A stretch of 64,000 nt of DNA from a virus. Position 1 is the first letter of the stretch. Every line of letters begins with the position of its first letter. The stretch is taken from positions 1-64,000 of IMG/VR virus record IMGVR_UViG_3300027771_000011, one strand, 5' to 3'. The notes beneath the pieces were generated by a model that was given only the letters and a program-made list of their open reading frames with translations, was not told where the DNA came from and did no database searches. Made by a program: the position numbers and the translations under genes. Shown here one piece after another: positions 1 through 63,999 of this stretch.

Positions 1-304
1 GGTTAGTGTTCACTAACATAATCAAGATATAGGGGGGCCAATCAGCGACCCCGTTCACCTGCCGACCCCCCCATGGTCACTCAGCGACCCCCCCTATTAC
101 AAAGATTGCCGATTACCTTGCTTTTAGTCCATGGTAAAAGACCCTCAATCTACCCACCAAAACCATCCTAATCACACCCATAAAACCACCCTAGTAATGG
201 ACGTAAACTGCAGTCATTTATGGCCGTAATTGTTTGGACTTACATTCTTCCGCGACTCTGCTTAATTACCTACGCTTAGTAACGTTTGGATACGTTAGGT
301 GACA

Positions 305-345
305 GGGGTAACTAACTCCAAATATATGGCATGGTTAGTTACCCC
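305..345. repeat. 12-bp perfect inverted repeat (GGGGTAACTAAC / GTTAGTTACCCC, 17-nt spacer)
   Basis: Read directly: 305-316 is the reverse complement of 334-345. Confidence 0.85.
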
Positions 346-468
346 CCCCATCCAGAGCTTTCCAAAAAGTATATAGAGGTATTACCAAAAAGTTTTGTGT
401 ATTCATCTATAACTTGTTGTTTTTTATACAGTAAAAAGGGTAACCATTACCAAGTAGTTTTGTGTATG

Positions 469-534
469 ACCCAAACGGTACAGTTTCTGAACCCAAACGG
501 TACAGTTTCTGAACCCAAACGGTACAGTTTCTGA
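469..534. repeat. Three exact tandem copies of a 22-bp unit ACCCAAACGGTACAGTTTCTGA (iteron-like)
   Basis: Units at 469-490, 491-512 and 513-534 with no spacers, next to an AT-rich stretch (~365-435). Confidence 0.95.
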
Positions 535-596
535 ACGGTATCATAGGAATCGGTTGTCAAGTAACTGAATTAGTTGAAGTTTTTTTAAATAAGCAC

Positions 597-623
597 TTGA
601 CGGAGTGCGCACGAATCTATAAT
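597..623 (+). promoter_or_regulatory. Putative late promoter (TTGACG ... TATAAT) with palindrome GTGCGCAC in the spacer
   Basis: -35 at 597-602 and TATAAT at 618-623. The 15-bp spacer is suboptimal. It lies upstream of the whole morphogenesis operon. Confidence 0.5.
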
Positions 624-669
624 AAAGGGGGTAGATTCAGATTGTAGTGACTGAGTCTCTGCTTGATGG

Positions 670-772
670 GTGACCACAAATTTCGTGGGTGGTTACACTG
701 TCGCAGTATACCTACAGCGATTCCTCCTAGGTCGTAGTAGTTGTCCTCACCGGATTCCTAGACCGGTGAGGA
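670..772 (+). ncRNA. Structured late-leader RNA / candidate sRNA (three hairpins)
   Basis: Stems 670-677/689-696, 712-720/732-740 (loop UUCCUCCUAGG) and 744-753/763-772 (loop AUUCCUAGA). G-U pairs favour the + strand. Confidence 0.5.
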
Positions 773-801
773 TCCCCCCCCAAATTTAAAAGTAAATCTT
801 T

Positions 802-1482
802 ATGGCTGACTCATATTCAGTTCAAAGTCGTGAAGGCGCTACTAAAAGAGAAGTGCCTTTAACCCCTGACGAAAAACAGGCTTGGTCTGAGAAACTCTCA
901 AAGCAAAAAGAAGAAGACGCCATCATCGCTAAACACAAGGCGAAAGAAGATGTGCGTAAAGATAAATTCAAACGCTGGTGTAGTCGTAACGGGCTAAAAA
1001 GTCAGCAGCAGCGTCATGGTGGTCAGGTCTTAGAAGAGACTGGAACACTTATCACGGTGCGACAAGAACACTTCCTTATGGAGTACATGATTGATTTTGA
1101 TTTGGCTAGAGCAATGGCGAAGGCACAGATCATTCATAAGAAGGTCGCTGTAAGGATATTGAATAAACATCACTCAAGGCTATTTATGCAAGAGCGAATG
1201 AACGAGCTTAAAGAAAAATCTTTAGTGGACGAAGAGATGGTTGTCCGAGGGCTTATCAAAGAAGCAAAGGATATGGAGTTCGGTTCGCCCGGATCTAGGG
1301 TAACAGCTTGGACTCAGTTGGGTCGTCACTTAGCCATGTTCACTGACAAGAGGACTGTTGATTCAAAGATTGCTATTGAATCTGTTATCGCTGATCTACC
1401 TGCATTGGACGATGACGCCATTGAGGGTGATTACATTGAGTCATCCACTGTCGTCAACATCGAAGACATTGATCGGATATGA
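802..1482 (+). CDS. terS: Terminase small subunit
   Basis: Immediately upstream of and overlapping terL. Carries RQEHFLMEYMIDFD and AWTQLGRHLAMFTDK, typical Terminase_2-like motifs. Confidence 0.8.
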   Translation: MADSYSVQSREGATKREVPLTPDEKQAWSEKLSKQKEEDAIIAKHKAKEDVRKDKFKRWCSRNGLKSQQQRHGGQVLEETGTLITVRQEHFLMEYMIDFDLARAMAKAQIIHKKVAVRILNKHHSRLFMQERMNELKEKSLVDEEMVVRGLIKEAKDMEFGSPGSRVTAWTQLGRHLAMFTDKRTVDSKIAIESVIADLPALDDDAIEGDYIESSTVVNIEDIDRI

Positions 1483-3071
1483 CCCCTGCTGAAAAACAAA
1501 AGCTTCAGGCGTTAAAAACTAACTTCCCTTATTTTGCGAAGTCGTGCCTCAACATCAGGACAAAGAAAGGTGATGAGAAGCGGTTTGTGCTCAACAAAGC
1601 CCAGCAGTTCATTCATGAGAAATTAGAGAAGCAGATTGTTGAGACTGGAAAGGTGAGGGCACTTGTTCTTAAAGGTAGGCAACAAGGCTGCTCAACTTAC
1701 ACTGAGGCTCGTTTCTATCATAAGGTGAGTCAGAACCGAGGCAAGCGTGCGTTCATCCTTACACACGAGCATGAAGCCACGGCCAACTTGTTTGATATGG
1801 TAAGACGTTATCACGAAGGCAATCCTTTCAAGCCATCCGTCTCTAGTTCAAACGCCAAAGAGTTGATGTTCGACAAGATAGACTCTGGTTACAAGGTGGG
1901 TACTGCAGGTAACAAAGCAGTAGGTCGATCTCAAACCCTACAATTATTTCATGGATCAGAAGTTGGTTTCTGGCCCAACGGTGAAGAGCATCTAGCTGGT
2001 GTATTGCAAGCCGTTCCATCGGAGGATGGTACTGAAGTTATTCTTGAATCAACTGCCAACGGTGTTGGTGGTGTGTTCTATGAAATGGTTCAGGCAGCAC
2101 AGCGAGGCGAAGGCACATACCAATTAATATTTGTGCCTTGGTACTGGCAACCTGAATACGTCATGTTATCTCCAGTAGATTTCGTTAGGACAAAACAAGA
2201 AGAGCAGATGGTAGAGAGCCTTGGCTTAACAAACGATCAGCTTTATTGGAGGCGCAATAAAATCATGGAGCTTCGCTCTGATGACTTGTTCCGTCAAGAG
2301 TACCCCATTTCAGCAAACGAAGCGTTCATCTCATCGGGTCGCAGTGTGTTTGTCTCTTCATGGCTTATGGCCGCAAGAGATGAGTGCTACTCCCCAATGA
2401 TGAGAGCTGACCTTCAGATTGAATCGCAGACACTGATTGAAAAAGATGATGGCTGTTTAAGGGTTTGGGATTTACCTCAATCGAATTCTCGTTACGTTAT
2501 AGGCGTTGACGTTGCAGAAGGCTTAGAGAAGGGTGACTTCTCGTGTGCAGATGTCTTAGACCAAAACGGTAATCAAGTAGCTCAGTGGCATGGAAAAATT
2601 GCTCCTGATCATTTTGGTGATTTGCTCTACGCCTTGGGCATGCTATATCGCAGAGCCTTTATGGGAGTTGAGCGAAACAACCACGGGCTTACTACCCTAA
2701 CCATATTAAAGAATAAAGGTTACCCCAACCTTTATATGCAAGAAGAATTAGAACGTGAGTATGACGGCAAACAATTTAAGAAAGTTGGCTGGCTTACAAC
2801 ATCTCGTTCCAAACCTTTAATCATCGACAACCTCGCATCCATTATCCGAGATTCTGATTCTGGCATTGTCTGCCAAGAAACAATTGATGAAATGGAAACT
2901 TACATCGTTCAGTCAAACGGTAGCACTAATTCAAGACATGGTTATTACGATGACCGCGTCATGTCTTATGCCATCGCTTGTGAAATGTATCGGAGGATGC
3001 CAAGAAATTATGGCCACTCCGTAGTAAGTATACGACAGTTTAAGGCCGCTCAAGCGGGTGTAGGGTATTAA
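1479..3071 (+). CDS. terL: Terminase large subunit
   Basis: Walker A LKGRQQGCST, Walker B LFHGSE, coupling motif ESTANG, RNase H-like nuclease IGVDVAEG ... DDRVMS. Confidence 0.95.
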   Translation: MTPAEKQKLQALKTNFPYFAKSCLNIRTKKGDEKRFVLNKAQQFIHEKLEKQIVETGKVRALVLKGRQQGCSTYTEARFYHKVSQNRGKRAFILTHEHEATANLFDMVRRYHEGNPFKPSVSSSNAKELMFDKIDSGYKVGTAGNKAVGRSQTLQLFHGSEVGFWPNGEEHLAGVLQAVPSEDGTEVILESTANGVGGVFYEMVQAAQRGEGTYQLIFVPWYWQPEYVMLSPVDFVRTKQEEQMVESLGLTNDQLYWRRNKIMELRSDDLFRQEYPISANEAFISSGRSVFVSSWLMAARDECYSPMMRADLQIESQTLIEKDDGCLRVWDLPQSNSRYVIGVDVAEGLEKGDFSCADVLDQNGNQVAQWHGKIAPDHFGDLLYALGMLYRRAFMGVERNNHGLTTLTILKNKGYPNLYMQEELEREYDGKQFKKVGWLTTSRSKPLIIDNLASIIRDSDSGIVCQETIDEMETYIVQSNGSTNSRHGYYDDRVMSYAIACEMYRRMPRNYGHSVVSIRQFKAAQAGVGY

Positions 3072-5198
3072 ATGATAATTGATTACAAAGAAGGTGAAGA
3101 GCCTCAAAACGATGAATCAGAGAACAACGAAAGAGTTGCTGATTCATTAGGCGGAACGCTGCGTAATCGTTTTGAAGAATGGAGCGATGCCCGTAAAGAC
3201 ATTGAAGACGATTGGGTTAAAGATCTGCGTGCGTTCAATGCTCAGTATGACGAAGACACACAGGCTCGTTTGTCTGCTGACCCCAACCGATCACAGATCT
3301 ATGTTCGTCTAACTCGTGAAAAAACAATGGCGGCTTATAGTCGCATCATTGATTTATTGTTTCCCAGTGGAGACATGCCTTGGAGTATAGAACCCACCAG
3401 CGTCCCCGAGATGATGGATGAACCTTCTATTATTGAGCTTAACCAAAAGGCCATGTTTGAAGTAGAGGCCATCATGCAGCAGTTACAAGCTGAAGGTGGC
3501 GAGTTACAGATAGATCCGATGGAGTTAGCAAAGCAGCGCGTTGCAGAAGTGATGGAAGAGGCTGCAGCAGAATCTCGAAAAATTGCTAAAAAACGTGCTG
3601 AGCTGATGACTCTCGAAATGAAGGATCAGTTAGAAGAATTGAATTATGAAGGTGTGTACAAGAAAGCCATTATGGAATCTTGCATGCTGGGTACAGGTTG
3701 TGTGAAAGGATCCACTGTAAAAGTGGAAAATAAACAGAGATGGTCAGAAACTCCTGATGGCTGGACAATGTCCTCAGAAGAAATCGCTAAACCAAATATC
3801 GAGTATGTATCAATTTTCGATGTTTATCCTGATCCTTATGCAATTGACTTGAGTGATTTATCTGGTGTGTTTCACCGCCATGTAATGACGAAGCATCAGT
3901 TTCGTGCGCTAAAGAAAATGACTGGATTTAGTACAGAAAACATAGATGAAATCGTTTCCGATAATCCTGATGGAAACCATGTTGAAGAAACCCACGAACA
4001 GTCAAGACGCCACATTGCTGGTCAGTTAATGAAGACCACATCAAATCGCTATGAGGTCATTGAGTGGTGGGGTTTAGTCGATGGTCTTGAACTTCAAAAG
4101 GCTGGATTAGAAATAGAAGATGAAACTGAAGAGTATGAGGCTAACGTCTGGATCTGTGGATCTAAAGTTATTCGTGCTCGATTGAATCCACACCAAGGTG
4201 GGGAGCTTCCCTATCAGTTATTTCCTTACGAACGCACTCCCCATCAGTTGTGGGGCACAGGCGTTCCTAAGATGATGCGTGATTCGCAAGACACCATTAA
4301 CGCTGCAGTAAGAATCTTCATTGATAACCAAGCAATTTCTTCTGGCCCTCAAGTTGAGGTCAATACCAACATGCTTCCAGCTGGAGCGGATGTTACTGAC
4401 ATTCACCCATGGAAGATTTGGTTACGTGAGGGTGGTGATTCAGCCACACCGATGCTCAGGTTCTATCAGCCGCAGAATGTATCTCAGCATCTAACCACTG
4501 TGATCGAATTGTTCAGACGCTTCGCTGATGAAGAAACATCAATGCCATCTTATAGCCACGGACAGAATACTCCGGGCATGACTAAGACAGCATCAGGCAT
4601 ATCCATGATGATGGGTGCAGCTTCTATTGCAGTTAAATCAATAATTAAGAACATTGATGACTATTTGACGCGTCCTCTAATTGTCAGTTTGTACAACTGG
4701 AACATGAGATGGAACATTAAAGAAGAAATCAAAGGTGATATGAAAATTGTCGCCCGTGGTTCTACCGCATTATTGGCTAAGGAAGTCCAATCTCAGCGTC
4801 TTATTCAGTTTGCTCAGATGACAACCAACGAAGTTGATCTGCCGTTAACAGATAGACGCGTTGTGCTGGGCGAAGTAGCCAGATCTCTTGATCTAGACCC
4901 TGATAAGTTCATGCCAGTGCCTGATGACGAGTCGATGCAAGCTCAAGAAGCAAGGCAAACAGCAGATGATCAGATGCGAGAAGCTCATATGGAAGCTGAG
5001 ATGGCTGAACAAGCGGCCACAATCGCTAAACTTCAGGCTCAAGCTAAGAGAGAACAGTCACAAGCGATGCTCAATATGGTTGATGCTGAGACATTACCTG
5101 CAGAACGAGAGGCAGAAGCTGCTCGAGACAGGGCATATGCGGCTCAAACAGTTCAATCTGTACAACAAGGCAAGACCCCAGATGGGTTTAGTCAGTAA
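3072..5198 (+). CDS. Portal protein
   Basis: 708 aa directly after terL. Contains VSIFDVYPDP, WGTGVPKMMRDSQ and KTASGISMMM, plus a coiled-coil C-terminal barrel as in P22/podovirus-type portals. Confidence 0.9.
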   Translation: MIIDYKEGEEPQNDESENNERVADSLGGTLRNRFEEWSDARKDIEDDWVKDLRAFNAQYDEDTQARLSADPNRSQIYVRLTREKTMAAYSRIIDLLFPSGDMPWSIEPTSVPEMMDEPSIIELNQKAMFEVEAIMQQLQAEGGELQIDPMELAKQRVAEVMEEAAAESRKIAKKRAELMTLEMKDQLEELNYEGVYKKAIMESCMLGTGCVKGSTVKVENKQRWSETPDGWTMSSEEIAKPNIEYVSIFDVYPDPYAIDLSDLSGVFHRHVMTKHQFRALKKMTGFSTENIDEIVSDNPDGNHVEETHEQSRRHIAGQLMKTTSNRYEVIEWWGLVDGLELQKAGLEIEDETEEYEANVWICGSKVIRARLNPHQGGELPYQLFPYERTPHQLWGTGVPKMMRDSQDTINAAVRIFIDNQAISSGPQVEVNTNMLPAGADVTDIHPWKIWLREGGDSATPMLRFYQPQNVSQHLTTVIELFRRFADEETSMPSYSHGQNTPGMTKTASGISMMMGAASIAVKSIIKNIDDYLTRPLIVSLYNWNMRWNIKEEIKGDMKIVARGSTALLAKEVQSQRLIQFAQMTTNEVDLPLTDRRVVLGEVARSLDLDPDKFMPVPDDESMQAQEARQTADDQMREAHMEAEMAEQAATIAKLQAQAKREQSQAMLNMVDAETLPAEREAEAARDRAYAAQTVQSVQQGKTPDGFSQ

Positions 5199-7937: not shown

Positions 7938-8291
7938 ATGTCTAAAGGTAAAGCCCTAAAAATGCAGACGGCAATATCTAAGGAAGACTTAGAATTTATT
8001 GAAACCATGTCTAAAGATGATCTTGAAAGCTATGTTAAGCAGCATTTCAGTATCGACATGGATAAGCGCAGCAAGGCCAGCACCCTAAGAGCCGATGCTA
8101 CGAAGATGATTAAAGACCATTTAGGTCTCACCGAACCAAAGGTTGAGAAGAAAGAAACCAATAAGGCAACTAAGGAACCCACTATTAAGTTTGTTCGTAA
8201 TCCTGTTGATGGCTTTCCTTATCCAACCATTCCATGGGGTGAGATGAACCCTGATTGGATGCCATGTGATTCAAGCGGTAAATTAATCTAG
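7938..8291 (+). CDS. Hypothetical head-associated protein
   Basis: GAGGAG RBS; position after the capsid gene. Confidence 0.75.
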   Translation: MSKGKALKMQTAISKEDLEFIETMSKDDLESYVKQHFSIDMDKRSKASTLRADATKMIKDHLGLTEPKVEKKETNKATKEPTIKFVRNPVDGFPYPTIPWGEMNPDWMPCDSSGKLI

Positions 8292-8300
8292 GAGTAATCC

Positions 8301-9011
8301 ATGGCCGTCACGTTAGCCAAAGAAATTATCAGTAGAGCCAAGATTGTTTTGCAGGACACAAGCTCGTCTGGCACGCGGTGGCCAAACTCTGAACTTCAGT
8401 ACTGGTTGAATGATGCTCATAAAGAAGTAGTCCTGTATCGGCCTGATGCCAATACTATTAATGAGGAGTTTACGCCTGTCGCAGACTCTTCCAAACAGAC
8501 TCTTCCAGCTGATGGATTGAGGTTGATGGAAGTTATTCGTAACACAGCAGCAACTTCTACCTATAAGGCAACTCGATTGATTCAGAGATCCGTTCTCGAT
8601 GACCAAGTACCTGCATGGCATAACGCAACGGCTGGCGTGAACATAGATCATTTTGTCTATGACGAGCGGGATCCAAAGACATTCTACTTGTATCCCCGAC
8701 CTAATTCTTTAGCAAGATTAGAGATTATATATTCAAAATTGCCTACTGAGATTTCGATTGTAAATGCAGACGAAACATTAAATTCAGCAGCATCAACCAC
8801 GAAGATAGGCGTAGATGATATTTATGCCAATGCTCTGTTGGATTTTATTCTCTATCGTGCCTATAACAAAGACGCGGAGTTTGCAGGTAATGCGACTCGT
8901 GCTCAAGTTCACATGATGGGCTTTGCTTCTTCATTGGGTGTTAAGTCAAAGATTGATGCTTCTAGTGCACAGATGAGAGCAGTACAAGGCGCAGATGCAG
9001 TTAACTCTTAG
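8301..9011 (+). CDS. Head-tail adaptor (DUF6682-like)
   Basis: RWPNSELQYWLNDA ... YRPDA, FYLYPRP and YRAYNKDAE motifs recalled for podovirus adaptors. Confidence 0.75.
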   Translation: MAVTLAKEIISRAKIVLQDTSSSGTRWPNSELQYWLNDAHKEVVLYRPDANTINEEFTPVADSSKQTLPADGLRLMEVIRNTAATSTYKATRLIQRSVLDDQVPAWHNATAGVNIDHFVYDERDPKTFYLYPRPNSLARLEIIYSKLPTEISIVNADETLNSAASTTKIGVDDIYANALLDFILYRAYNKDAEFAGNATRAQVHMMGFASSLGVKSKIDASSAQMRAVQGADAVNS

Positions 9012-9020
9012 GAATAACCC

Positions 9021-9665
9021 ATGGCTGATATAAAGTTAGAGACCCTTGTTCCTGATGTAGTAGTTGAGATTCAAGGCGCACCATCATTTACGATTATACA
9101 TTCTCTACGCAGAGCGACTTCTGAACTGTGTGAGCGAACCCTCATTTGGGAACATACAGAAGACACTCTTGATACAGAGGCTGGAGAGATAGAGCATGAC
9201 TTGCCTATTCCAAGGAATGCAGAGCTGGTTCAGCTTATTTCTATTTCTAGAAAAGGCGTGGAGTTAATACCCATTTCAGTTCGTAAGATGTCTCAGCTGC
9301 AGGGTGACGTTGAAGATGAAACCCGATGGGCCACTCCACTTTATTACTCCACCGATGGAATATTAACCACTCGCATGGCACCCATACCTAAAGTATCTGA
9401 AGAGCTTGAGTGTCGTATGGCATTAAAGCCGAAACAAAATGCAACGAGCATTCCTTATGAGCTGGGTGTTCGATGGCGAACTGCCATTGAAACTGGAGCG
9501 AAACACTTCCTTTGCATGATGGCGAATACAGAATGGTATGACCCTAATCGTGCGGCCTATTACAGGCAACTATTTGATCGTGAACTTGCTAGGGCCAAGG
9601 TTGCTCAGATGCAAGGTTACGACAGTACAAATCTCCGCGTTAAGTCAGTTCGATTTGGAGCGTAG
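9021..9665 (+). CDS. Second adaptor / tail tubular A-like protein
   Basis: Position; ELCERTLIW and ALKPKQNAT motifs typical of the paired adaptor. Confidence 0.65.
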   Translation: MADIKLETLVPDVVVEIQGAPSFTIIHSLRRATSELCERTLIWEHTEDTLDTEAGEIEHDLPIPRNAELVQLISISRKGVELIPISVRKMSQLQGDVEDETRWATPLYYSTDGILTTRMAPIPKVSEELECRMALKPKQNATSIPYELGVRWRTAIETGAKHFLCMMANTEWYDPNRAAYYRQLFDRELARAKVAQMQGYDSTNLRVKSVRFGA

Positions 9666-50374: not shown

Positions 50375-51568
50375 TCAGGCAGACTTCTTGCTAGGGTTAA
50401 GCGCTTCGATTGATGCACGATTTAATACGTCTAGTGTGGGCGTTGCCTCCTGCCAAACAATATCTTCGTGACCTCTTCCGTAGTTCTCCGTCATCTCTAG
50501 ATTAGCATGACCAGCCAACTGCTGAGGGTACTCTTTAGTTTGCTTCTGAATAAGATATATCCCTAGCGCTCTACCTTGGTGAAATGCTGGCTGTTCATTC
50601 ATTGATAGATCAGGATAAGGGTTAGCTAAGTCTCGTATCCGCTTGAACTCGTCAGACAAATACTTCGGGTACACCTTTGTGTAGTGAACATCATCTTCTC
50701 GTCCTGCGTTGCGGAGCCTCGGCTTCCGGTGAATTAGAAATGGGCTTGCTATGTTATCTCTGCACTGGTTTACAATAGCTCGAAGCTCTGGCGTTATCTC
50801 AATCTTGAGATAGCCCATGTCAGAATATTTCTCGGTCTTCTGCTGAATCACTTCAATAGAAGTGTCAGTCGATTTAGGCATCCGTATATTTAATATGTCA
50901 GCTCTTCGCTGAAGTGTCGTCAGTGCCAAGTTCATCGCACATCGCAACCATAGAGGGCATTCAGGATGGTCATAGATGGCCATCCAACCCTCGAAAGTAT
51001 GACGCTTCATGACACGTTTAGTTTTAACTGGCTTGGTCATATCAACAGGATTAGAATTACCGGTGATGTAACCTTTGGTGAGAGCGTACTGCATCATCAT
51101 CTTTAGGTTTTTACGCGTTGCGTTTCTTGCGTGAGGTGTACCAGAATCCTCATCATCTTCTTCGGGGTCATAGACTAAATCAAACAGCTCGTTTATCTTC
51201 AGGAGTGTAAACTGTTCCAAGGGAAGGTCAGGCATGTATTTAATTACCTTGTTCATCATCGTCTTCCGTTCAGCGATCAACGAGTCAGAGAAGTTGTCTA
51301 TATTTTTCTCGACAACATTAAGATACTTGGCGCACAGATCTCTCAGCTTCATACGAGTGCCGATGATCGACTCTGTTAAGTCAGTGCGTACAATGAGGAT
51401 AGAATTTGCTTGGTTAGCTGCACGAATTGCTTCGCCTCTGTTGGTGCCGAGTGACACATCTTTGCCAGCTGGTGCGTTGACGTAACGATAATAATCTGTC
51501 CCGTTGGAAGAGTTTATTTTCAGATACATTGGAAGTCCCTTAGTCTTACTTGATTGACGTTTCCTCAT
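50375..51568 (-). CDS. int: Tyrosine integrase (lambda Int-like, with arm-binding N-terminal domain)
   Basis: Catalytic R (QRRADIL), K (QQKT), HxxR (FHQGR), H (LAGH) and Y (TENYG); N-terminal YYRY ... SLGT ... EAI. Confidence 0.95.
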   Translation of the reverse strand: MRKRQSSKTKGLPMYLKINSSNGTDYYRYVNAPAGKDVSLGTNRGEAIRAANQANSILIVRTDLTESIIGTRMKLRDLCAKYLNVVEKNIDNFSDSLIAERKTMMNKVIKYMPDLPLEQFTLLKINELFDLVYDPEEDDEDSGTPHARNATRKNLKMMMQYALTKGYITGNSNPVDMTKPVKTKRVMKRHTFEGWMAIYDHPECPLWLRCAMNLALTTLQRRADILNIRMPKSTDTSIEVIQQKTEKYSDMGYLKIEITPELRAIVNQCRDNIASPFLIHRKPRLRNAGREDDVHYTKVYPKYLSDEFKRIRDLANPYPDLSMNEQPAFHQGRALGIYLIQKQTKEYPQQLAGHANLEMTENYGRGHEDIVWQEATPTLDVLNRASIEALNPSKKSA

Positions 51569-51773
51569 TTCTATCTCCTAGAATAATTTTACTAAGTAAA
51601 GGATCAGCGAGTAGTGGGTCGCCAATTTTAAGATCTATGTAATATTTCCTGCCTATTTTTTGAGCAACAAGATCACCCTTTGCAATCCATTCTAACATCA
51701 CTCGTTTAGATGGAGCAGATGATGGTGTGAACCTCACTTCTCTGTACTCATCAAGCGTCATCAACTTTCTCAT
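51546..51773 (-). CDS. xis: Excisionase
   Basis: LMTLDEY ... PS ... WI..G ... KIGRKYYI winged-helix pattern; overlaps the int start. Confidence 0.85.
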   Translation of the reverse strand: MRKLMTLDEYREVRFTPSSAPSKRVMLEWIAKGDLVAQKIGRKYYIDLKIGDPLLADPLLSKIILGDRNEETSIK

Positions 51774-53267: not shown

Positions 53268-53639
53268 TTATCCAAAAATGCGGCTGAAAATTCGGGATAA
53301 GAGGGAGTCTTCTTGTCTGTCCGGAGCGACATGCACCACCGGATTGTAAGGAGCATTCTTTCGCAATGGTTTTGGCGCATGAGGATTTGATCCGAGATCT
53401 GATCCGTCAATAAACGCTTGGCTGTGCCGCCTTAGCTCAGCAAGAGTAGGTGACACTCTGCGTCTTTCAAGACTCGAGTAAAGTTTAGGACAGCGCATCT
53501 CACACTCAGAGTGCAGCGCATATCTGACTCGGCCTGTTGACAATCCGACACGAGACGCTGTTGCATTAATGGACACACCCTCGAGGGTGAGGGTAAATGC
53601 TTCAATGTTGAGGCTTGTACTTTTATATTTTCGTAGCAT
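53268..53639 (-). CDS. Hypothetical HTH-like protein
   Basis: CTAGGAG RBS; EGVSINATASRVGLSTGRVRYAL looks HTH-like. Confidence 0.6.
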   Translation of the reverse strand: MLRKYKSTSLNIEAFTLTLEGVSINATASRVGLSTGRVRYALHSECEMRCPKLYSSLERRRVSPTLAELRRHSQAFIDGSDLGSNPHAPKPLRKNAPYNPVVHVAPDRQEDSLLSRIFSRIFG

Positions 53640-53698
53640 GTTAACTCCTAGGCTTTCACCGGCCTTATGACCGGTGGTGTGTTAGTTGAGGCGACTTT

Positions 53699-54364: not shown

Positions 54365-55258
54365 CTACTTTGTCGCTGCAACTCTAAAATAGCTGCTGCT
54401 CTTTCCGCGATACTGTTCAAGATCGACACCATCTAGTGATGGCACTTTCTTGTAATTTATATTTCCTTTGCGCTCAGCTTGAGTGACGCGAACACCACCA
54501 CCCTCACAGTCTCTGTCTCCAGAGAGATCAATGAGACGCCCACGCGCTTCGTCTACGCGCTCTTTGGCTTCAGCCAGTAATGCGTTGGCTTCAGTCCATT
54601 CGTTTGCGACAGACGTAAACTCAGCGTCCTTGCGTTGCAGAACCCCATCACCTTTCATCTCATCACTCTTAAGCAATGCCCAGAATTCAGCCCACTTTTC
54701 CATTAGACGATTGATGTCTTCTTGGTTTCGATCAATGGTGATCTGAAGGTGCGACTTGTCACGCGCATCGTAGATAAACAACTTGGCTTCTTTGGCATCA
54801 GCGACAAACATCTGCTGCTGAATCTGCCAATAATATTGAGGAGGGCACTCACCCTTCTCAACAAGTAGCCAAGTCTTGCTTTGCTTACCTTGGTAGGGGC
54901 ACTTGATTTCAGAGACATGACCTGTACTGCCATCAAACTCCACAGATTTGCCGTCAAGAGACGCTGATAAAGGGAGGCCATTATGCTCACGGGTAACAAC
55001 AACAGGGGCGTAGAACTCATCGTTGACTTTCTCTGCCGCTATACGCGCCTCGTCCTCGTGGGTGTGACCCCATTCGGTAGCGACATTGCCAACAAAAGGA
55101 ATACCATTGCCTCGATACCAGTTGAGGAGGCTGTCCCAAGTATTTGGAGTGAACGTCTGAACACCCATGATTAAACCAGCAGAACTGGCATTACAGTGAA
55201 CGCGTCTGTGATCCATCCATGCGTCAGTGTTCTGCTCCAGCTGGGCTAAAGAGTTCAT
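54365..55258 (-). CDS. YqaJ-like (lambda-exonuclease family) recombination nuclease
   Basis: EQNTDAWMDHR, WGHTHEDEAR, SASLDG, EIKCP and YYWQIQQQM motifs. Confidence 0.92.
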   Translation of the reverse strand: MNSLAQLEQNTDAWMDHRRVHCNASSAGLIMGVQTFTPNTWDSLLNWYRGNGIPFVGNVATEWGHTHEDEARIAAEKVNDEFYAPVVVTREHNGLPLSASLDGKSVEFDGSTGHVSEIKCPYQGKQSKTWLLVEKGECPPQYYWQIQQQMFVADAKEAKLFIYDARDKSHLQITIDRNQEDINRLMEKWAEFWALLKSDEMKGDGVLQRKDAEFTSVANEWTEANALLAEAKERVDEARGRLIDLSGDRDCEGGGVRVTQAERKGNINYKKVPSLDGVDLEQYRGKSSSYFRVAATK

Positions 55259-55905
55259 GACGCCACCGCCAGCTCATCTCCGTCAGTAGGTGCAACCTTC
55301 TCAGCTACGAGTAAGGTTTTGTGCAACTTTCTAATTGCACGTTCAGCTTGCTCTGAAGTCATGTCGCTGATTGCTTTTAGCTTCAGACCTTTGGTTACGT
55401 TTGCGATGTCTACACCAGCCTCCGCTGCCATATCTTTCACAGATTTGATCTCCAACTTGGACGCCATGCGGATCAGTTCTATAGGCTGAGCTTGTTCGCC
55501 CTCTGGATCATCGTCTGTTCTTATAGAGGCATCGTTGTCAGTCTGTGTTAGTCCCGCAATTGCACTACAGGAGTACCTGCGCAAATAAGTTATCGAGCTA
55601 CCAAGACACTGTATTGCTGAGTTGCCCTTGGCCATTTCGATCTGACAAGAGACTGAATCTTTTATCCATTCTCCAGAGCTGTGTGAGAGCATGGTCGTGA
55701 CACAAGCATTCGCTCCATCGTTACTGGGCGTTTGAATGAGAGCGATCTCATATTTAGGTAGCGTCTGGCGTAGCATGTCCAGAATCACACCGAGATCAGC
55801 GTAGTTATAATTGTAAGCAGCGGTGCCTTTGTATACGTTGATCATTTCGGCTTGTGCTTGAGAAAGGGCGAGGCTTATAGCCCCAATGTTTTCGGAAGTT
55901 TCCAT
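55255..55905 (-). CDS. erf: ERF-family single-strand annealing protein
   Basis: YNYADL, TMLSHSSGEWI and GSSITYLRRYS ... DNDA motifs. Confidence 0.92.
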   Translation of the reverse strand: METSENIGAISLALSQAQAEMINVYKGTAAYNYNYADLGVILDMLRQTLPKYEIALIQTPSNDGANACVTTMLSHSSGEWIKDSVSCQIEMAKGNSAIQCLGSSITYLRRYSCSAIAGLTQTDNDASIRTDDDPEGEQAQPIELIRMASKLEIKSVKDMAAEAGVDIANVTKGLKLKAISDMTSEQAERAIRKLHKTLLVAEKVAPTDGDELAVAS

Positions 55906-55925
55906 TGTAATACTCCTAGTTAATA

Positions 55926-56613: not shown

Positions 56614-56836
56614 AACGTTCTCCTAAACATTCTCGATCAAGGGTAGACGAGGATGCCCAGTTTGTACCAAAGTTAATTTTAATAGCGGTCATAGCATCTC
56701 TTGCTGTCATTATTCTTTTATTTAAACGGCAAAGTCTAAGAAGAGATATATAGCTATTAGATGTAATGTAATTCCATTTGGAGATACATGTTTGTTCACG
56801 ACAAACCCTAAACAAGTGTGTATTAAGTAAGCTCAT
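56558..56836 (-). CDS. Hypothetical protein in the immunity region
   Basis: GGAG RBS before ATG 56836; overlaps both neighbours. Confidence 0.4.
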   Translation of the reverse strand: MSLLNTHLFRVCREQTCISKWNYITSNSYISLLRLCRLNKRIMTARDAMTAIKINFGTNWASSSTLDRECLGERYEITHRANSKKAKSRKRS

Positions 56837-57086
56837 AGAACACTCCATCATACCCTGTGGGTTTTACCTGCAACTGTATTTTTTTAAATTCTTTGCCAAG
56901 GATTTTCATTTGTGTCTCACCCTTAAACGTATCCTTAACTGCAAGATACTTAGGACTAACATCACCCCAGTTATCCCAGTGTGTAATATGCCAAGGCCAG
57001 TTTGATCCAGATTCCATCATCCAGCCCTTATTTTTTACTGGAAATTGACCCGTATTGTGAATGACGCGAAATGATTTATCGATCAT
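56823..57086 (-). CDS. Hypothetical protein, first gene of the leftward immunity transcript
   Basis: Strong TAGGAGGAA RBS before ATG 57086. Confidence 0.65.
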   Translation of the reverse strand: MIDKSFRVIHNTGQFPVKNKGWMMESGSNWPWHITHWDNWGDVSPKYLAVKDTFKGETQMKILGKEFKKIQLQVKPTGYDGVFYELT

Positions 57087-57110
57087 CTTTATTCCTCCTA
57101 TAATTAAATA

Positions 57111-57294
57111 TATCTGCGTGCTACGCATAATATCTGCGTGCTACGCATAACCTACATCAGAACGTGATTACGTTCAATCTTATTACGAAATTAATTCTGC
57201 TTTACTTTTTTCCTCCCTAGGTAGTTTCGTGTAATCGAAATTAATACTTGACATAACTCTGCGTGACTCTCAGAATACTTTCGCGCACACGAAC
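57111..57294. promoter_or_regulatory. Switch region: 20-bp tandem operator duplicate, further palindromes and pR
   Basis: TATCTGCGTGCTACGCATAA x2 (57111-57150); palindromes at 57160-57175, 57225-57240, 57257-57275 and 57279-57294; TTGACA (57248)-17-CAGAAT. Confidence 0.75.
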
Positions 57295-57314
57295 TTTAAT
57301 CTAGGAGTTACACT

Positions 57315-57536
57315 ATGAATAAAAATACACCCTTACGGAACATACGAACACTGAAAGGCTACAGCCTTCAGCATGTGTGCTCACATGTACATATGGATAA
57401 CGGGCATTTATCACGCATTGAGCGTGGAGAAAAAACTTCCACTGAAGTAGCTGAGAAACTTAGTGTCTTTTTTAAGAATGAAATATCTGAGATCGAGATT
57501 CTTTATCCAGAACGCTACATTACTAATGAAGAGTAG
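57315..57536 (+). CDS. cro: Cro-like XRE regulator
   Basis: TPLRNIR ... LSRIERGE ... AEKLSVFF ... ISEIEILYPERY, a lambdoid Cro-position family; CTAGGAG RBS. Confidence 0.8.
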   Translation: MNKNTPLRNIRTLKGYSLQHVCSHVHMDNGHLSRIERGEKTSTEVAEKLSVFFKNEISEIEILYPERYITNEE

Positions 57537-61289: not shown

Positions 61290-61593
61290 ATCTAATGCAC
61301 TACGCCAATCAGCTAGAGATCAAGCCTGTACATTTCAGATCCCTAAGATCTGCAACCACAACAAAGAGACTACTGTACTGGCTCACATACAAACAGAGGG
61401 TGGAATAATGGGAGGCAAGGCTGATGATTTCTCTGCTGCATTCGCATGCTTCGCTTGTCATGTTCACTTAGACCAACACAGGATGACCTATGAAGATGAG
61501 TTGTTCTTTACTCGCAGGGCATTGGTAAGAACTATTTCTTATTGGGTTAATAATGGTTTGATCAAAGTTAAGGGGAACACGAATGACCGATAA
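61279..61593 (+). CDS. DUF1364 (YbcO-like) nuclease-fold protein
   Basis: SARDQACTFQIPKICNHNKETTVLAH ... K.DD ... AFACFACH. Confidence 0.88.
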   Translation: MSVKSNALRQSARDQACTFQIPKICNHNKETTVLAHIQTEGGIMGGKADDFSAAFACFACHVHLDQHRMTYEDELFFTRRALVRTISYWVNNGLIKVKGNTNDR

Positions 61594-62029
61594 AGAAGTC
61601 GATGCACTCTTGCATCATTGGGCTGAGTGGGTAGCTAGAGATAAGGATGCTGGTCTTGGCTTCCCCTCAAAAACTATACTGGGTCGATTATCTGATGGAG
61701 ATATTAGCTCAGCCAGTAGCTTTAAATCATCGACACCACCTCTAAAGAAGAGAGACTTTAGGGCAGAAGCTGTTAACAAATCTGTCATTAAGTTATCTAA
61801 GATTGATGACACCTTGAGTGAGGCTATCACGCTACATTACTGCCAGCAGGGTAGTGCTGAAAAGAAATGCAAGGTGCTTGGAGTCAGCAGAAGAAATTAC
61901 TTCACGATGCTTGACCGAGCAAGGACATGGCTGTCTGGATTCCTCACCGCCATTGCTGAAAAAACAATCAATCCAAGTATCAAGTACAGACTTGATGAAG
62001 ATCGTGGGGTAGGGCGTCCTATCACTTAG
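61583..62029 (+). CDS. Late-gene antiterminator Q-like protein
   Basis: LHHWAEW ... LGFP N-terminus and a C-terminal HTH (LGVSRRNYFTMLDRARTWL); last gene of the rightward early operon. Confidence 0.7.
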   Translation: MTDKEVDALLHHWAEWVARDKDAGLGFPSKTILGRLSDGDISSASSFKSSTPPLKKRDFRAEAVNKSVIKLSKIDDTLSEAITLHYCQQGSAEKKCKVLGVSRRNYFTMLDRARTWLSGFLTAIAEKTINPSIKYRLDEDRGVGRPIT

Positions 62030-62252: not shown

Positions 62253-62512
62253 GGATTTACCTCTACTAATTTAAAAAATTTATCCGTACTTAAATCTACA
62301 TCAGCGAATGCAATCCTATAGCTTTCATGTCTATAATCTAAACCATCAGCCAGAAAGTAATCGTTATAACCTTTGGCGTAGGCATCTATACGATCTACTG
62401 CGTTTATGTCGTCACTATAAACAACTAGCATTGGTTCGCCATCCTGTAAATACATGTATGACTCCTTAGCAAGAGACCATACTAAGTGTTCATGAAATGT
62501 CATTACTTTCAT
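62249..62512 (-). CDS. Hypothetical protein
   Basis: ATGA-coupled on both sides; GGAGG RBS. Confidence 0.65.
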   Translation of the reverse strand: MKVMTFHEHLVWSLAKESYMYLQDGEPMLVVYSDDINAVDRIDAYAKGYNDYFLADGLDYRHESYRIAFADVDLSTDKFFKLVEVNP

Positions 62513-63498
62513 GCTGCTTCCTCCACGTTAAGTTCGTTAGCCATGAGAACCTGAAATCTAAAGTCGGTTATGGCATCCATTACGCTACCGCTATGATTAC
62601 TTATATAGTCTGTTATCTTCCTGTAAAGGTAATAAGGTATTGGCTTTCCTGCTATCTCATTAATGCGTGTCATTGCAGTAGTCATATAGCGTTCCTGAAG
62701 CTTGTCATTAACTGCTGTTGAGATCCTTAACTCAGATGACGCATTCTTTTTATAAGCAAGGGCTATGTCTTCAAACAGAAATATAAATCCTGACTCATTG
62801 TTATAGTAGGGGAAGTCGTTAGAGGGTTTGATCCACTTAGCTTTGAATACTTTTAAGCCATGTTGGTTGGTGCTTAATAGTTCTGCATACAAGATAATTT
62901 TAGTTTCGATCCTTATAATATTCGAGATGTCTTCTAGCTTTAGGAGTCCATCCATATGGATTAGCTGGCCGTTGAACCCTCCACATTCCAGCTCGAACTT
63001 AGACGAACCAACATTACTGCTAAGATCTTTCCATGCGTCCTTATGATCGTTCCTGCTACCAAAAGACATAGACCATTGTTCTTTTCTTATAGCTAACAAC
63101 TTTTGTCTTGGCGTAATAGAACCATCATATCTATCTTTGTTATAAGAAATTTTGTCGGCCCTTGATTTACGTTCTCTATGTATTCTAGAGCAATGATTTA
63201 CATGGGTGCTTAGAAAATCATGAAGTCCATTCTCGTCAAGGAAACTAAACATATTATGCTGAGCCGCTTGTTCAATGATTTCTTTAGACCAGCTACGCCC
63301 ACCCCGATAACTGAACTTTTCTTCAGATTTACGTTTAGTTATTAAGTTAGCTATACGTTTTAGTTCAGGGGTGAACAACTTGAAACCAGCACTCCTATTT
63401 ATAATGTATTCATTTATTCCAAGAGACAGGTCATTAATAATTTCCCGTCTTCTTGAGATCAATACACGATCTCTTTCTTCTCTTAGGTTCTTATCCAT
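62509..63498 (-). CDS. Hypothetical protein
   Basis: 329-aa ORF with CTAGGAGG RBS. Confidence 0.7.
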   Translation of the reverse strand: MDKNLREERDRVLISRRREIINDLSLGINEYIINRSAGFKLFTPELKRIANLITKRKSEEKFSYRGGRSWSKEIIEQAAQHNMFSFLDENGLHDFLSTHVNHCSRIHRERKSRADKISYNKDRYDGSITPRQKLLAIRKEQWSMSFGSRNDHKDAWKDLSSNVGSSKFELECGGFNGQLIHMDGLLKLEDISNIIRIETKIILYAELLSTNQHGLKVFKAKWIKPSNDFPYYNNESGFIFLFEDIALAYKKNASSELRISTAVNDKLQERYMTTAMTRINEIAGKPIPYYLYRKITDYISNHSGSVMDAITDFRFQVLMANELNVEEAA

Positions 63499-63507
63499 TA
63501 CATCCTC

Positions 63508-63999
63508 CTAGATGTTTATGTTAATCGTCTCACCCCAAGGGGCAACCTTCTCGTTGGTACACGCCCACAAGACAGGATAGTTAGGCTGTCTAGGCATATT
63601 GCAATAAAGATCAGTCAGATAAATTAAACAGGCTGGCTCAACACCTTCCTTCTGTACATGATCAGCTACCCAATCAAACGCTGGCTGGAAGTCTGTGCCA
63701 CCACCTCGAGGGAACTCCCACTTGAATGGAAGATCATCAGGTGTCTTAATGGACTGAACCTTTTGAACTTCCGTGTCACAGAACAAGATGTGAACACTGG
63801 TATTGAAGTTACTTAAGATGCTGTTGACCTCAGAACCAAGTCGAGTAGTCTCTTCAGGCGTAATTGATCCAGAGGTATCATTAACAATAATGATCTCACC
63901 TATCGTCTCGTTATGCAGGGAAGGGCAGTAGATGTCATCATGAATGAACCTACGATCAGGACGCCTCCAAGAGTATTCATCCTTAGCCCACTGAGTAAC
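63508..63999 (-). CDS. VWA-domain protein (DUF2201-like), 5' end outside the window
   Basis: The frame stays open to the window edge: YSWRRPDRR, MIDAS DTSGS, GGGTDF, YLTD. Confidence 0.85.
   Translation of the reverse strand, partial: VTQWAKDEYSWRRPDRRFIHDDIYCPSLHNETIGEIIIVNDTSGSITPEETTRLGSEVNSILSNFNTSVHILFCDTEVQKVQSIKTPDDLPFKWEFPRGGGTDFQPAFDWVADHVQKEGVEPACLIYLTDLYCNMPRQPNYPVLWACTNEKVAPWGETININI

What the first reader, a model, noticed from the sequence alone, without database searches (positions are those of the whole stretch)
597..780. Late-leader RNA with two UCCUAG loops complementary to the CUAGGAG ribosome-binding sites of the phage's own early genes
Seen: after the putative late promoter come three hairpins. 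Loop 2 is UUCCUCCUAGG (721-731) and loop 3 is AUUCCUAGA (754-762); both expose UCCUAG. The complement CUAGGAG is the RBS of int (51575-51581), the 53639 gene (8-nt match, 53645-53652), erf (55913-55919), cro (57301-57307) and the 63498 gene (9-nt match, 63503-63511). The first immunity gene matches 720-729 over 10 nt (57091-57100). One late gene (8288-8294) also has it. Known: lambdoid pR'-tR' leaders can yield trans-acting sRNAs, and anti-SD loops seed sRNA pairing. Inference: a phage-encoded multi-target sRNA that damps early/recombination genes through a shared extended RBS. Caveats: CCUCCU pairs with any SD, so only the CUAG extension is specific, and hairpin 3 lacks a U-tail.
Basis: partly seen in the sequence, partly recalled or inferred. 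Interest (0 to 1): 0.75.

Follow-up and report, generated by a model that had tools for sequence, protein, structure and literature searches.

The report
Phage late-operon leader with anti-RBS loops
Just before its DNA-packaging genes, this uncultured marine temperate phage encodes a conserved folded RNA leader whose exposed loops are the exact complement of the ribosome-binding sites used mostly by the phage's own early genes, so it may switch those genes off, though nobody has yet seen the RNA or its effect.

Summary
Every coordinate checks, and the leader (625-801) folds far better than shuffles (z -4.6). Six distinct relatives keep the promoter. All six keep loop 2 (UCCUCCUAG) unchanged and mostly unpaired, while stems and loop 3 vary.

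CTAGGAG is the commonest ribosome-site heptamer in this phage (11 of 63 RBS-like NNNGGAG) and in a 66-kb relative (10 of 79). Outside the window, a gene for a putative ATPase has an 11-nt perfect match, kept in the relative despite diverged flanks. Early genes match more often than late ones (14 of 53 against 3 of 40).

The case is weakened on five counts:
- In 8 of 18 sites the TAG is simply the upstream gene's stop codon.
- Any anti-SD sequence pairs with any SD.
- A relative with TAGGAG-rich sites lacks the loops.
- The last hairpin has no U-tail here.
- No RNA evidence was obtained.

My reading is a late-operon leader, probably Q-controlled, that most likely pairs in trans with early-gene ribosome sites (confidence about 0.4). 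No Rfam family or known phage matches it.

Earlier unchecked notes of this scan report similar anti-SD leaders before the packaging genes of other phages.

The parts
597..623 (+). Promoter-like site: TTGACG (597-602), 15-nt spacer holding the palindrome GTGCGCAC (605-612), TATAAT (618-623)
   Evidence: Read. Invariant in 6 of 6 leader variants apart from two spacer positions. The palindrome occurs once in the window. The consensus scan, which allows 16-18 nt spacers only, does not call it.
633..658 (+). Hairpin 1, beginning with the -10-like hexamer TAGATT (633-638). Possible promoter-proximal pause element (inferred).
   Evidence: Structure. TAGATTCAG is invariant in 6 of 6 variants.
659..706 (+). 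Hairpin 2, a variable insert
   Evidence: Structure. Replaced or shortened in L093, L097, L098 and L008.
712..740 (+). Hairpin 3 with loop UUCCUCCUAGG (721-731), the conserved anti-RBS loop
   Evidence: TCCTCCTAG is invariant in 6 of 6 variants. P(unpaired) is 0.69-1.0 in all six.
743..773 (+). Hairpin 4 (11-bp GC-rich stem) with loop AUUCCUAGA (754-762). Terminator-like in relatives; here followed by C8 (774-781) instead of a U-tract.
   Evidence: I12. The stem differs between relatives while pairing is kept. The loop varies: ACUCCUAGA, CUUCCUAAG, AUACCUCCUAGUG, or UUAU in L098.
802..1482 (+). terS (small terminase), first gene of the late operon. No Shine-Dalgarno sequence before its ATG in this phage.
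   Evidence: Pfam Terminase_2, E 9.2e-5, below the cut-off. Followed by terL and the portal gene. Upstream sequence.
8288..8294 (+). CTAGGAG at the RBS of late gene 8301-9011. The TAG is the stop of gene 7938-8291.
51575..51581 (-). CTAGGAG at the RBS of int (50375-51568)
53645..53652 (-). CCTAGGAG (8 nt) at the RBS of gene 53268-53639
55913..55919 (-). CTAGGAG at the RBS of erf (55255-55905)
   Evidence: Kept in the relative G001.
57091..57100 (-). TAGGAGGAAT (10 nt, complement of 720-729) at the RBS of the first leftward gene (56823-57086)
57301..57307 (+). CTAGGAG at the RBS of the cro-like HTH gene (57315-57536)
63503..63511 (-). CTAGGAGGA (9 nt) at the RBS of gene 62509-63498. The TAG is the stop of the upstream gene.
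61583..62029 (+). Q-like antiterminator candidate, last gene of the rightward early operon
   Evidence: phrog_79 'anti-termination protein Q-like', E 2.1e-8. Pfam PF06530, E 1.2e-3, 19.3 bits, below the cut-off of 26. No solved-structure relative.

Best explanation
Bases 597-801 are the promoter and structured 5' leader of the late (packaging and structural) operon of a temperate marine phage.

Transcription probably starts near 626-631 from a sigma-70-like promoter. Its unusual 15-nt spacer carries a unique palindrome, which I infer to be the loading site for the phage's Q-like protein or a late activator. The RNA folds into four hairpins. Two of them display, in their loops, a ribosome-like anti-Shine-Dalgarno sequence extended by UAG(G).

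The most likely function of these loops is to pair in trans, by loop contacts of 7-11 nt, with the (C)CUAGGAG(GAA) ribosome-binding sites that the phage uses mainly for its early and accessory genes. These include int, erf, cro, the first leftward gene and a block of leftward genes. Pairing would block their translation once late transcription floods the cell with this leader. The leader could act either as the 5' end of late mRNA or as a terminated or processed short RNA.

Shown here: the sequence, the fold prediction, the conservation, the complementarity and its bias. Inferred: that the RNA is made, that it pairs, and that it represses.
For: - Position and context: the leader lies directly before terS, terL and the portal gene. 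A Q-like gene is present.
- Fold: z -4.56 against 200 shuffles.
- Conservation: promoter, TAGATTCAG and TCCTCCTAG are invariant in 6 of 6 distinct variants (TerS identity 76-95%). Hairpin 2 is replaced and the hairpin 4 stem changes with pairing kept. The motifs are mostly unpaired in all six.
- A 77%-TerL relative (L018) has an unalignable leader, yet both of its hairpin loops carry CCUCC (P unpaired 1.0). The second hairpin is a called terminator abutting the terS ATG.
- CTAGGAG is the top RBS heptamer here (11 of 63) and in the relative G001 (10 of 79). It is also the top 7-mer in the -20..-1 regions (8 of 91 and 8 of 97 genes).
- The UAG extension ties for best of 256 variants in both phages.
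- An 11-nt perfect match, CCTAGGAGGAA, lies before gene 66057-67040, outside the window. It is kept in G001 inside an exactly conserved 17-mer while the flanks diverge.
- Early genes are favoured over late genes: 14 of 53 against 3 of 40, p 0.029.
- Precedent: late-promoter leaders acting as sRNAs (PMC7547250 abstract), and loop-to-RBS antisense control by c4 and sar (PMC12197685, passages).
Against: - No transcript evidence was obtained.
- Hairpin 4 has no U-tract in this phage, and the scan found no + strand terminator.
- The promoter spacer is 15 nt and the scan does not call the promoter.
- CCUCC pairs with any SD.
- The TAG of the motif is the stop codon of the upstream gene in 3 of 9 RBS sites here and 5 of 9 in G001. 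Without those and the doubtful sites the excess shrinks to 6 of 58 (p 1.5e-4) and, in G001, 4 of 73 (p 0.017).
- For CTAGGAG alone the early-late contrast is not significant (8 of 53 against 1 of 40, p 0.07).
- My start-codon choice favoured SD-bearing starts.
- G000 and G001 are relatives, not independent samples.
- G005 (group C) has TAGGAG in 7 of 40 start regions but no complementary loop.
- Loop 3 lost the motif in L098.
- Among 48 distinct terS-upstream regions of TerL relatives only 7 hold CCTCC, about chance.
- Both cro and the first gene on the opposite, leftward side of the switch are predicted targets.
Confidence: 0.4

Rival explanations
1. This is a plain Q-type, or activator-dependent, late leader. 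The hairpins serve pausing, termination, antitermination or mRNA stability. The pyrimidine-rich loops and the C8 tract act, if at all, as Rho or Nus factor contacts. Complementarity to RBSs is a by-product of generic anti-SD/SD complementarity plus TAG-stop/SD overlaps.
For: - A Q-like gene is present.
- The spacer palindrome is conserved and a -10-like TAGATT follows the promoter.
- A terminator-like hairpin with a U-tract occurs in relatives: L008 by eye, L018 called.
- The TAG is the upstream stop in 8 of 18 RBS sites.
- Group C relatives have TAGGAG RBSs without matching loops.
- CCTCC is not enriched across the wider TerL family (7 of 48).
Against: - It does not explain why 9 loop bases, including UAG, are invariant in 6 of 6 variants while neighbouring stems and hairpin 2 change.
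- It does not explain why UAG is the best of the possible extensions for this phage's own RBS set in two genomes.
- It does not explain why L018 independently shows CCUCC in both loops.
Confidence: 0.3
2. Control in cis: the anti-SD loops pair with ribosome-binding sites on the same late transcript (terS or downstream genes) to gate late-gene translation, as in RNA thermometers or riboswitch expression platforms.
For: - Relatives L008 and L097 have GGAGG before terS.
- One late gene carries CTAGGAG (8288) and another CTTAGGAA.
Against: - terS of this phage, L003, L092 and L018 has no SD at all.
- Only 3 of 40 late genes have a match of 7 nt or more.
- In L097 the terS SD is predicted to pair with a different upstream segment, not with the loops.
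Confidence: 0.1
3. Protein-binding RNA: the conserved loop is the recognition site of a phage or host RNA-binding protein, for example an antitermination or processing factor. The RBS likeness is secondary.
For: The loop sequence is strictly invariant and hairpin 3's stem is largely conserved in sequence. That pattern is typical of protein-recognised hairpins.
Against: - No candidate protein was identified.
- It does not predict the match to the phage's own RBS set.
Confidence: 0.1
4. DNA-level element: the inverted repeats and the TTCCT(CC)TAG repeats are binding sites on double-stranded DNA, for example for terminase (pac) or a regulator, next to the repeat-rich non-coding region 1-596.
For: The element lies beside terS and a repeat-rich region with three 22-bp repeats, palindromes and C-runs.
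Against: - G-U pairs and compensatory changes keep RNA-type pairing on the + strand.
- U-tracts follow the last hairpin on the + strand in relatives.
- All RBS copies of the motif are in mRNA sense.
Confidence: 0.07

Closest known systems
StxS of Stx phages and lambda 6S RNA (PR'-tR' late-leader RNAs)
   Same: All are short structured RNAs made from the late promoter just upstream of the late genes of a temperate phage with a Q antiterminator. StxS acts in trans by base pairing, including on a phage-borne transcript (PMC7547250, abstract). Lambda 6S is Hfq-bound, is present in lysogenic and lytic cells, and its role is undetermined (bioRxiv 10.1101/2024.10.31.621285, section 8).
   Different: There is no sequence or Rfam likeness. 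This phage has no canonical tR'. The Q-like gene is about 12 kb from the promoter rather than adjacent. The predicted seed is an anti-SD loop aimed at many of the phage's own early RBSs, not at rpoS or a toxin transcript.
c4 antisense RNA of phages P1/P7 (and P22 sar)
   Same: These are phage RNAs whose exposed loops pair with the ribosome-binding region of a phage mRNA to block translation (PMC12197685, passages seen).
   Different: c4 and sar each control one antirepressor gene of an immunity operon. The Rfam search found no C4 match. Here there are up to about 17 predicted targets in several operons, and the RNA heads the late operon.
T4 RegB and RegA (recalled, not looked up)
   Same: Both are a late-phase shut-off of early-gene translation through a sequence feature of early ribosome-binding sites.
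   Different: Those are proteins (a nuclease cutting GGAG and a translational repressor). Here the proposed agent is an RNA.
C-rich-loop sRNAs of Firmicutes (RNAIII hairpins, RsaE; recalled, not looked up)
   Same: Several hairpins present C/U-rich loops that pair with SD sequences of multiple mRNAs.
   Different: Those are host-encoded, unrelated in sequence, and not an operon leader.

Membership tests
Lambdoid PR'-tR' late leader (Q-antiterminated) | Phage encodes a Q-family antiterminator | tested here: inconclusive
   phrog_79 Q-like, E 2.1e-8, over 125 of 148 residues. Pfam PF06530 scores only 19.3 bits against a cut-off of 26. No solved relative.
Lambdoid PR'-tR' late leader (Q-antiterminated) | Sigma-70 promoter just upstream of the late genes, with a Q-binding element between -35 and -10 | tested here: inconclusive
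   TTGACG-15 nt-TATAAT, invariant in 6 of 6 variants, with a unique palindrome in the spacer. The 15-nt spacer is not called by the scan. Binding is untestable here.
Lambdoid PR'-tR' late leader (Q-antiterminated) | Intrinsic terminator shortly downstream of the promoter | tested here: not met
   In the window, hairpin 4 is followed by C8, and no + strand terminator is called. Relatives have U-tracts: L008 by eye (not called, where the scan allows loops of 3-8 only) and L018 called.
Lambdoid PR'-tR' late leader (Q-antiterminated) | Sequence likeness to lambda 6S or StxS | tested here: not met
   No blastn match of 560-810 in 50,697 phage records beyond a 26-nt chance hit. No Rfam match.
C4 antisense RNA (Rfam family; accession recalled as RF01695) | Match to the family covariance model | tested here: not met
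   0 matches at gathering score over the window. No C4 hit at E up to 10 in 1-1000.
C4 antisense RNA (Rfam family; accession recalled as RF01695) | Targets lie downstream in the RNA's own operon (an antirepressor operon) | tested here: not met
   Only 3 of 40 late-operon genes match. 14 of the 17 matches lie in other operons.
Trans-acting base-pairing sRNA (general kind) | Conserved, accessible seed | tested here: met
   TCCTCCTAG is invariant in 6 of 6 variants, with P(unpaired) 0.69-1.0.
Trans-acting base-pairing sRNA (general kind) | Target complementarity conserved in relatives | tested here: inconclusive
   Kept at 5 of 7 compared ortholog RBSs (8301, erf, 66047, 67040, 9021). Changed at int (CTTAGGAG) and 63498 (GTAGGAG). 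Newly present at 64970's ortholog. Only one long relative was available.
Trans-acting base-pairing sRNA (general kind) | A discrete, expressed transcript | not testable with these tools
   Only assembled contigs of four metatranscriptome runs could be laid. They say nothing on the leader.

The most novel reading that the evidence does not exclude
This phage lineage marks its early and accessory genes with an extended ribosome-site code, (C)CUAGGAG(GAA). It carries, at the head of its late operon, an RNA whose loops read that code. Late transcription would then switch off early translation, as an RNA counterpart of T4 RegA/RegB. If the similar leaders noted elsewhere in this scan are real, this would be a widespread and undescribed way for phages to time their gene expression.
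Probability: 0.3. Interest if true: 0.8.

Novelty: new variant of a known kind. Interest (0 to 1): 0.58.

Why it matters
Temporal control of phage genes is usually explained by transcription: repressors, antiterminators and new sigma factors. A late-operon leader that silences a whole class of early messages through a shared ribosome-site extension would add a post-transcriptional shut-off layer.

It would also give lambda-type late leaders a function; the lambda 6S role is still called undetermined in bioRxiv 10.1101/2024.10.31.621285, section 8. And it would show that ribosome-binding sites can carry class labels beyond the SD core.

The idea is directly testable with reporter fusions and compensatory mutations in a laboratory strain. 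If the rival reading is right, the finding is an ordinary late leader of a new phage group.

Tried and rejected
- RNA evidence: I laid contigs of four metatranscriptome runs (X15-X18) on 1-3200. Pieces lie only on 899-3200 (terS, terL, portal start) and none on 1-856. These are contigs, and DNA carry-over cannot be excluded, so this says nothing for or against a leader RNA.
- Known families: Rfam at gathering score over the window gave 0 matches. Rfam at E up to 10 on 1-1000 gave three chance-level hits, none on the leader.
- Known phages: megablast of 1-3000 and blastn of 560-810 against 50,697 phage records gave no real match.
- Coding reading: the 39-codon GTG frame 670-789 crosses hairpin 2, which is replaced by unrelated sequence of other lengths in relatives. 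I rejected it.
- Opposite-strand reading (GGA loops, CsrA-type sponge): I rejected it because the promoter, the G-U pairs and the U-tracts of relatives are all on the + strand.
- General rule 'anti-SD before every terS': not supported in this TerL family. Of 59 loci with terS and 200 nt upstream (from 78 entered), 48 had distinct upstream regions and 7 of those hold CCTCC, about chance.
- Loop and RBS co-variation in distant relatives gave nothing usable. G002 to G005 are fragments (23-82% complete) and their top RBS words do not match their leader loops.
- Further leader variants: the promoter word gave one unrelated GC-rich hit. The loop word gave 41 stretches, of which 4 were the known relatives; the other 37 were unrelated contigs, many of them showing the word as the reverse strand of a CTAGGAGGAA site just upstream of a start codon.
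- AAA-ATPase homologues: the scan found only G001, so no co-occurrence test was possible.
- Host: the nearest prophages are in Marinomonas, at 51-53% TerL identity and with a different leader. The host stays unknown, so host-wide SD usage could not be compared.
- Literature: two full-text searches listed no paper on a late-operon leader with anti-SD loops. I read only listings, two outlines or abstracts, one section and passages of one review. Supplements were closed and not seen.

Full report
WHAT THE WINDOW IS. The window is bases 1-64000 of a 73,555-base linear viral record, estimated 93% complete.
- The + strand from 802 to about 50,030 holds terS, terL, the portal gene and the structural genes, including a 4641-codon frame.
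- A leftward block runs from int (50375-51568) through erf (55255-55905) to a start at 57086.
- A rightward block runs from a cro-like HTH gene (57315) through replication genes, RusA-like and NinB-like genes to a Q-like gene (61583-62029).
- A further leftward block runs from 62031 to the record's end.
- Bases 1-800 are non-coding and rich in repeats.
- No cultured phage is close: TerL identity is at most about 37% over the full length.
- The nearest prophages, at 51-53% TerL identity, are in Marinomonas. The host is unknown.

THE OBSERVATION.
- The RNA 625-801 is predicted to form four hairpins: 633-658, 659-706, 712-740 and 743-773. MFE is -66.5 kcal/mol against -48.1 +/- 4.0 for shuffles (z -4.56; 0 of 200 shuffles fold as well).
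- The two motifs lie in the loops of hairpins 3 and 4. Three weak pairs are predicted inside the 11-nt loop, so it is only partly open (P unpaired 0.69-0.88).
- The promoter-like site has a 15-nt spacer and is not called by the consensus scan.
- Hairpin 4 is followed by eight C, not by U.

RELATIVES.
- A TerL scan of viral contigs gave 137 relatives, of which 80 were kept. A TerS scan of metagenome contigs gave 7.
- Six distinct versions of the same leader exist: window/L002, L003/L092, L093, L097, L098, and L008 with five identical copies.
- In their alignment the promoter, the first transcribed bases (AAAGGG), TAGATTCAG and TCCTCCTAG are invariant. Hairpin 2 is replaced or deleted.
- The hairpin 4 stem differs between relatives while pairing is kept.
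  - Between the window and L003, which are 95% alike, one U-A pair becomes C-G.
  - L008 and L097 have largely different stems.
- RNAalifold recovers both hairpins, but only 2 of 18 pairs show double changes. The alignment is off by a base or two in some arms.
- Loop 3 is less constant: AUUCCUAGA, ACUCCUAGA, CUUCCUAAG, AUACCUCCUAGUG, and in L098 a plain UUAU.
- In L008 the last hairpin is followed by UUUUUAU. The scan does not call it, since it allows loops of 3-8 only.
- L018 (77% TerL) has a leader that cannot be aligned. Yet both of its hairpin loops carry CCUCC, and the second is a called terminator that abuts the terS ATG.
- Group C relatives (79% TerL) show UCCUU or UUCCCCU instead.
- Across 48 distinct terS-upstream regions of the wider TerL family only 7 hold CCTCC. 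The feature therefore belongs to this sub-lineage and is not a family rule.

THE TARGETS.
- Over the whole record, 16 CTAGGAG occur and 11 of them lie 4-10 nt before a start codon opening at least 40 codons. That makes CTAGGAG the commonest of all NNNGGAG at such places: 11 of 63, with TAAGGAG and TTTGGAG next at 5 each.
- Two of the 11 (60538, 64065) are probably internal to genes.
- Three sites lie outside the window: before genes starting at 66047 and 72130 (7 nt each) and 67040.
- The 67040 site reads CCTAGGAGGAA, a perfect 11-nt complement of loop 2. By eye the gene has Walker A and B motifs of a MoxR-like AAA ATPase. No family search was run on it.
- The relative G001 (the 66-kb record of L008) shows the same picture: 10 of 79 RBS-like NNNGGAG.
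- In G001 the ATPase site is kept inside an exactly conserved 17-mer while the flanking intergenic sequence has diverged and the spacing to the ATG differs by 3 nt.
- CTAGGAG is the top 7-mer of the -20..-1 regions in G000 (8 of 91 genes) and G001 (8 of 97). It is not the top in the four more distant, fragmentary records.
- I varied the four bases after TTCCTCC through all 256 possibilities. The real UAG extension ties for the most start regions matched over 7 nt: 16 genes against a mean of 6.8 here, and 14 against 4.3 in G001.
- Loop 3 ranks 2nd of 256 here. In G001 it scores 4 genes against a mean of 0.79, tied from 4th place.
- Matches of 7 nt or more are found in 14 of 53 non-structural genes and 3 of 40 late genes (Fisher p 0.029).

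WHAT WEAKENS IT.
- The raw count of CTAGGAG in the window is not above chance.
- The TAG doubles as the stop codon of the upstream gene in 3 of the 9 credible sites here and 5 of 9 in G001. Part of the excess is therefore ordinary stop/SD overlap. Without those sites the excess is 6 of 58 (p 1.5e-4) and 4 of 73 (p 0.017).
- For CTAGGAG alone the early-late contrast is p 0.07.
- My gene calls are crude, and the start choice favoured SD-bearing starts.
- G000 and G001 share ancestry.
- G005 has TAGGAG in 7 of 40 start regions without a matching loop.
- Some sites turn over between the two phages: int becomes CTTAGGAG, 63498 becomes GTAGGAG, and the ortholog of 64970 gains CCTAGGAGG.
- The same RBS word occurs in unrelated viral contigs.

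HOW IT MOST LIKELY WORKS.
- Several features fit a late promoter under a Q-type or activator-type regulator:
  - the position before terS;
  - the Q-like gene (phrog_79, E 2.1e-8; Pfam PF06530 below its cut-off);
  - the unique palindrome in the promoter spacer;
  - the invariant -10-like TAGATT just after the start;
  - the terminator-like last hairpin in relatives.
- This step is inferred.
- The loop is invariant while its surroundings change. It is also tuned to the phage's own RBS set. Trans pairing with early and accessory RBSs explains both best, and I hold it at about 0.4.
- The main rival, at about 0.3, is that the leader serves only transcription control and the complementarity is generic.
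- Cis control of terS is unlikely, because terS has no SD here, in L003 or in L018.
- A DNA-level role is unlikely, given strand-specific G-U pairs and U-tracts.

COMPARISON WITH WHAT IS KNOWN.
- StxS is a 74-nt sRNA processed from the terminated PR' transcript of Stx phages. It acts in trans (PMC7547250, abstract).
- Lambda 6S, from the same position, binds Hfq, is present in lysogens, and has an undetermined role (bioRxiv 10.1101/2024.10.31.621285, section 8).
- c4 of P1/P7 and sar of P22 block one antirepressor RBS through exposed complementary sequences (PMC12197685, passages).
- The present element works like a blend of these, but it is a member of none:
  - no covariance-model or sequence match;
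  - no canonical terminator here;
  - targets in other operons, and many of them.
- T4 RegA/RegB and the C-rich loops of staphylococcal sRNAs are functional parallels that I recall and did not look up.

EARLIER NOTES OF THIS SCAN. Unchecked AI notes describe similar 'anti-SD loops in a leader before the packaging genes' in other phages. I did not test those. My own check in this TerL family shows the trait only in the close sub-lineage.

VERDICT. This is a new variant of a known kind (a phage regulatory RNA aimed at ribosome-binding sites), with no expression data yet.

Noticed in passing
window 57207-57222: TTCCTCCCTAGG, a near-copy of loop 2 with one extra C, lies on the + strand between the divergent early promoters. 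On the - strand it reads CCTAGGGAGGAA, with no start codon within 10 nt. It could be a further target-like or decoy site in the leftward leader.
   Followed up: no
window 57107-57150: Two tandem copies of a ~20-bp word (ATATCTGCGTGCTACGCATA) lie just upstream of the first leftward gene. A related CTCTGCGTGAC lies in the spacer of the rightward TTGACA promoter (57249-57254). These are probable operators.
   Followed up: no
window 802 and loci L008, L097, L018: terS has no Shine-Dalgarno sequence in this phage, L003 and L018; in L018 the ATG directly follows the terminator's U-tract. L008 and L097 have GGAGG there. How terS is translated here is unexplained.
   Followed up: partly
window 1-596; L093 1-1300: The non-coding region upstream of the late promoter is long: over 1.3 kb in L093. 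It is full of repeats: three exact 22-bp units (469-536), a 12-bp inverted repeat (305-345), CGACCCC boxes and C-runs. L093 has a different repeat (AGTCCACCTCATGGACTC, several copies) at the same place. This could be a pac or origin region.
   Followed up: no
G000 66035-66070, 67035-67060, 72125-72150 (outside the window); window 63495-63520: Several CTAGGAG ribosome sites sit in small self-complementary words (AUCUAGGAGAU, UUUCCUAGGAGGAAA). These are predicted to form weak hairpins with AGG or UAGGA in the loop, which would allow loop-loop contacts with the leader.
   Followed up: partly
G000 63508-67040 (partly outside the window): By eye, the leftward block holds a MoxR-like AAA ATPase (Walker A GKPGVGKS) and a protein with an HEVMH zinc-peptidase-like motif plus a Gly-rich linker. 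No family search was run on them.
   Followed up: no
window 597-623: The conserved late promoter has a 15-nt spacer, shorter than the usual 16-18. It encloses a perfect 8-bp palindrome found nowhere else in the window. Related palindromes (TGTGCACA, TGCGCA) occupy the same place in group C and D relatives.
   Followed up: partly
window 9005-9020; G001 2342-2360: A late gene (9021-9665) has CTTAGGAA at its RBS in both phages. In G001 this is an 8-nt complement of that phage's loop 3 (CUUCCUAAG). G001's int RBS also reads CTTAGGAG rather than CTAGGAG. This is a hint of loop and site co-variation, but it rests on very few sites.
   Followed up: partly
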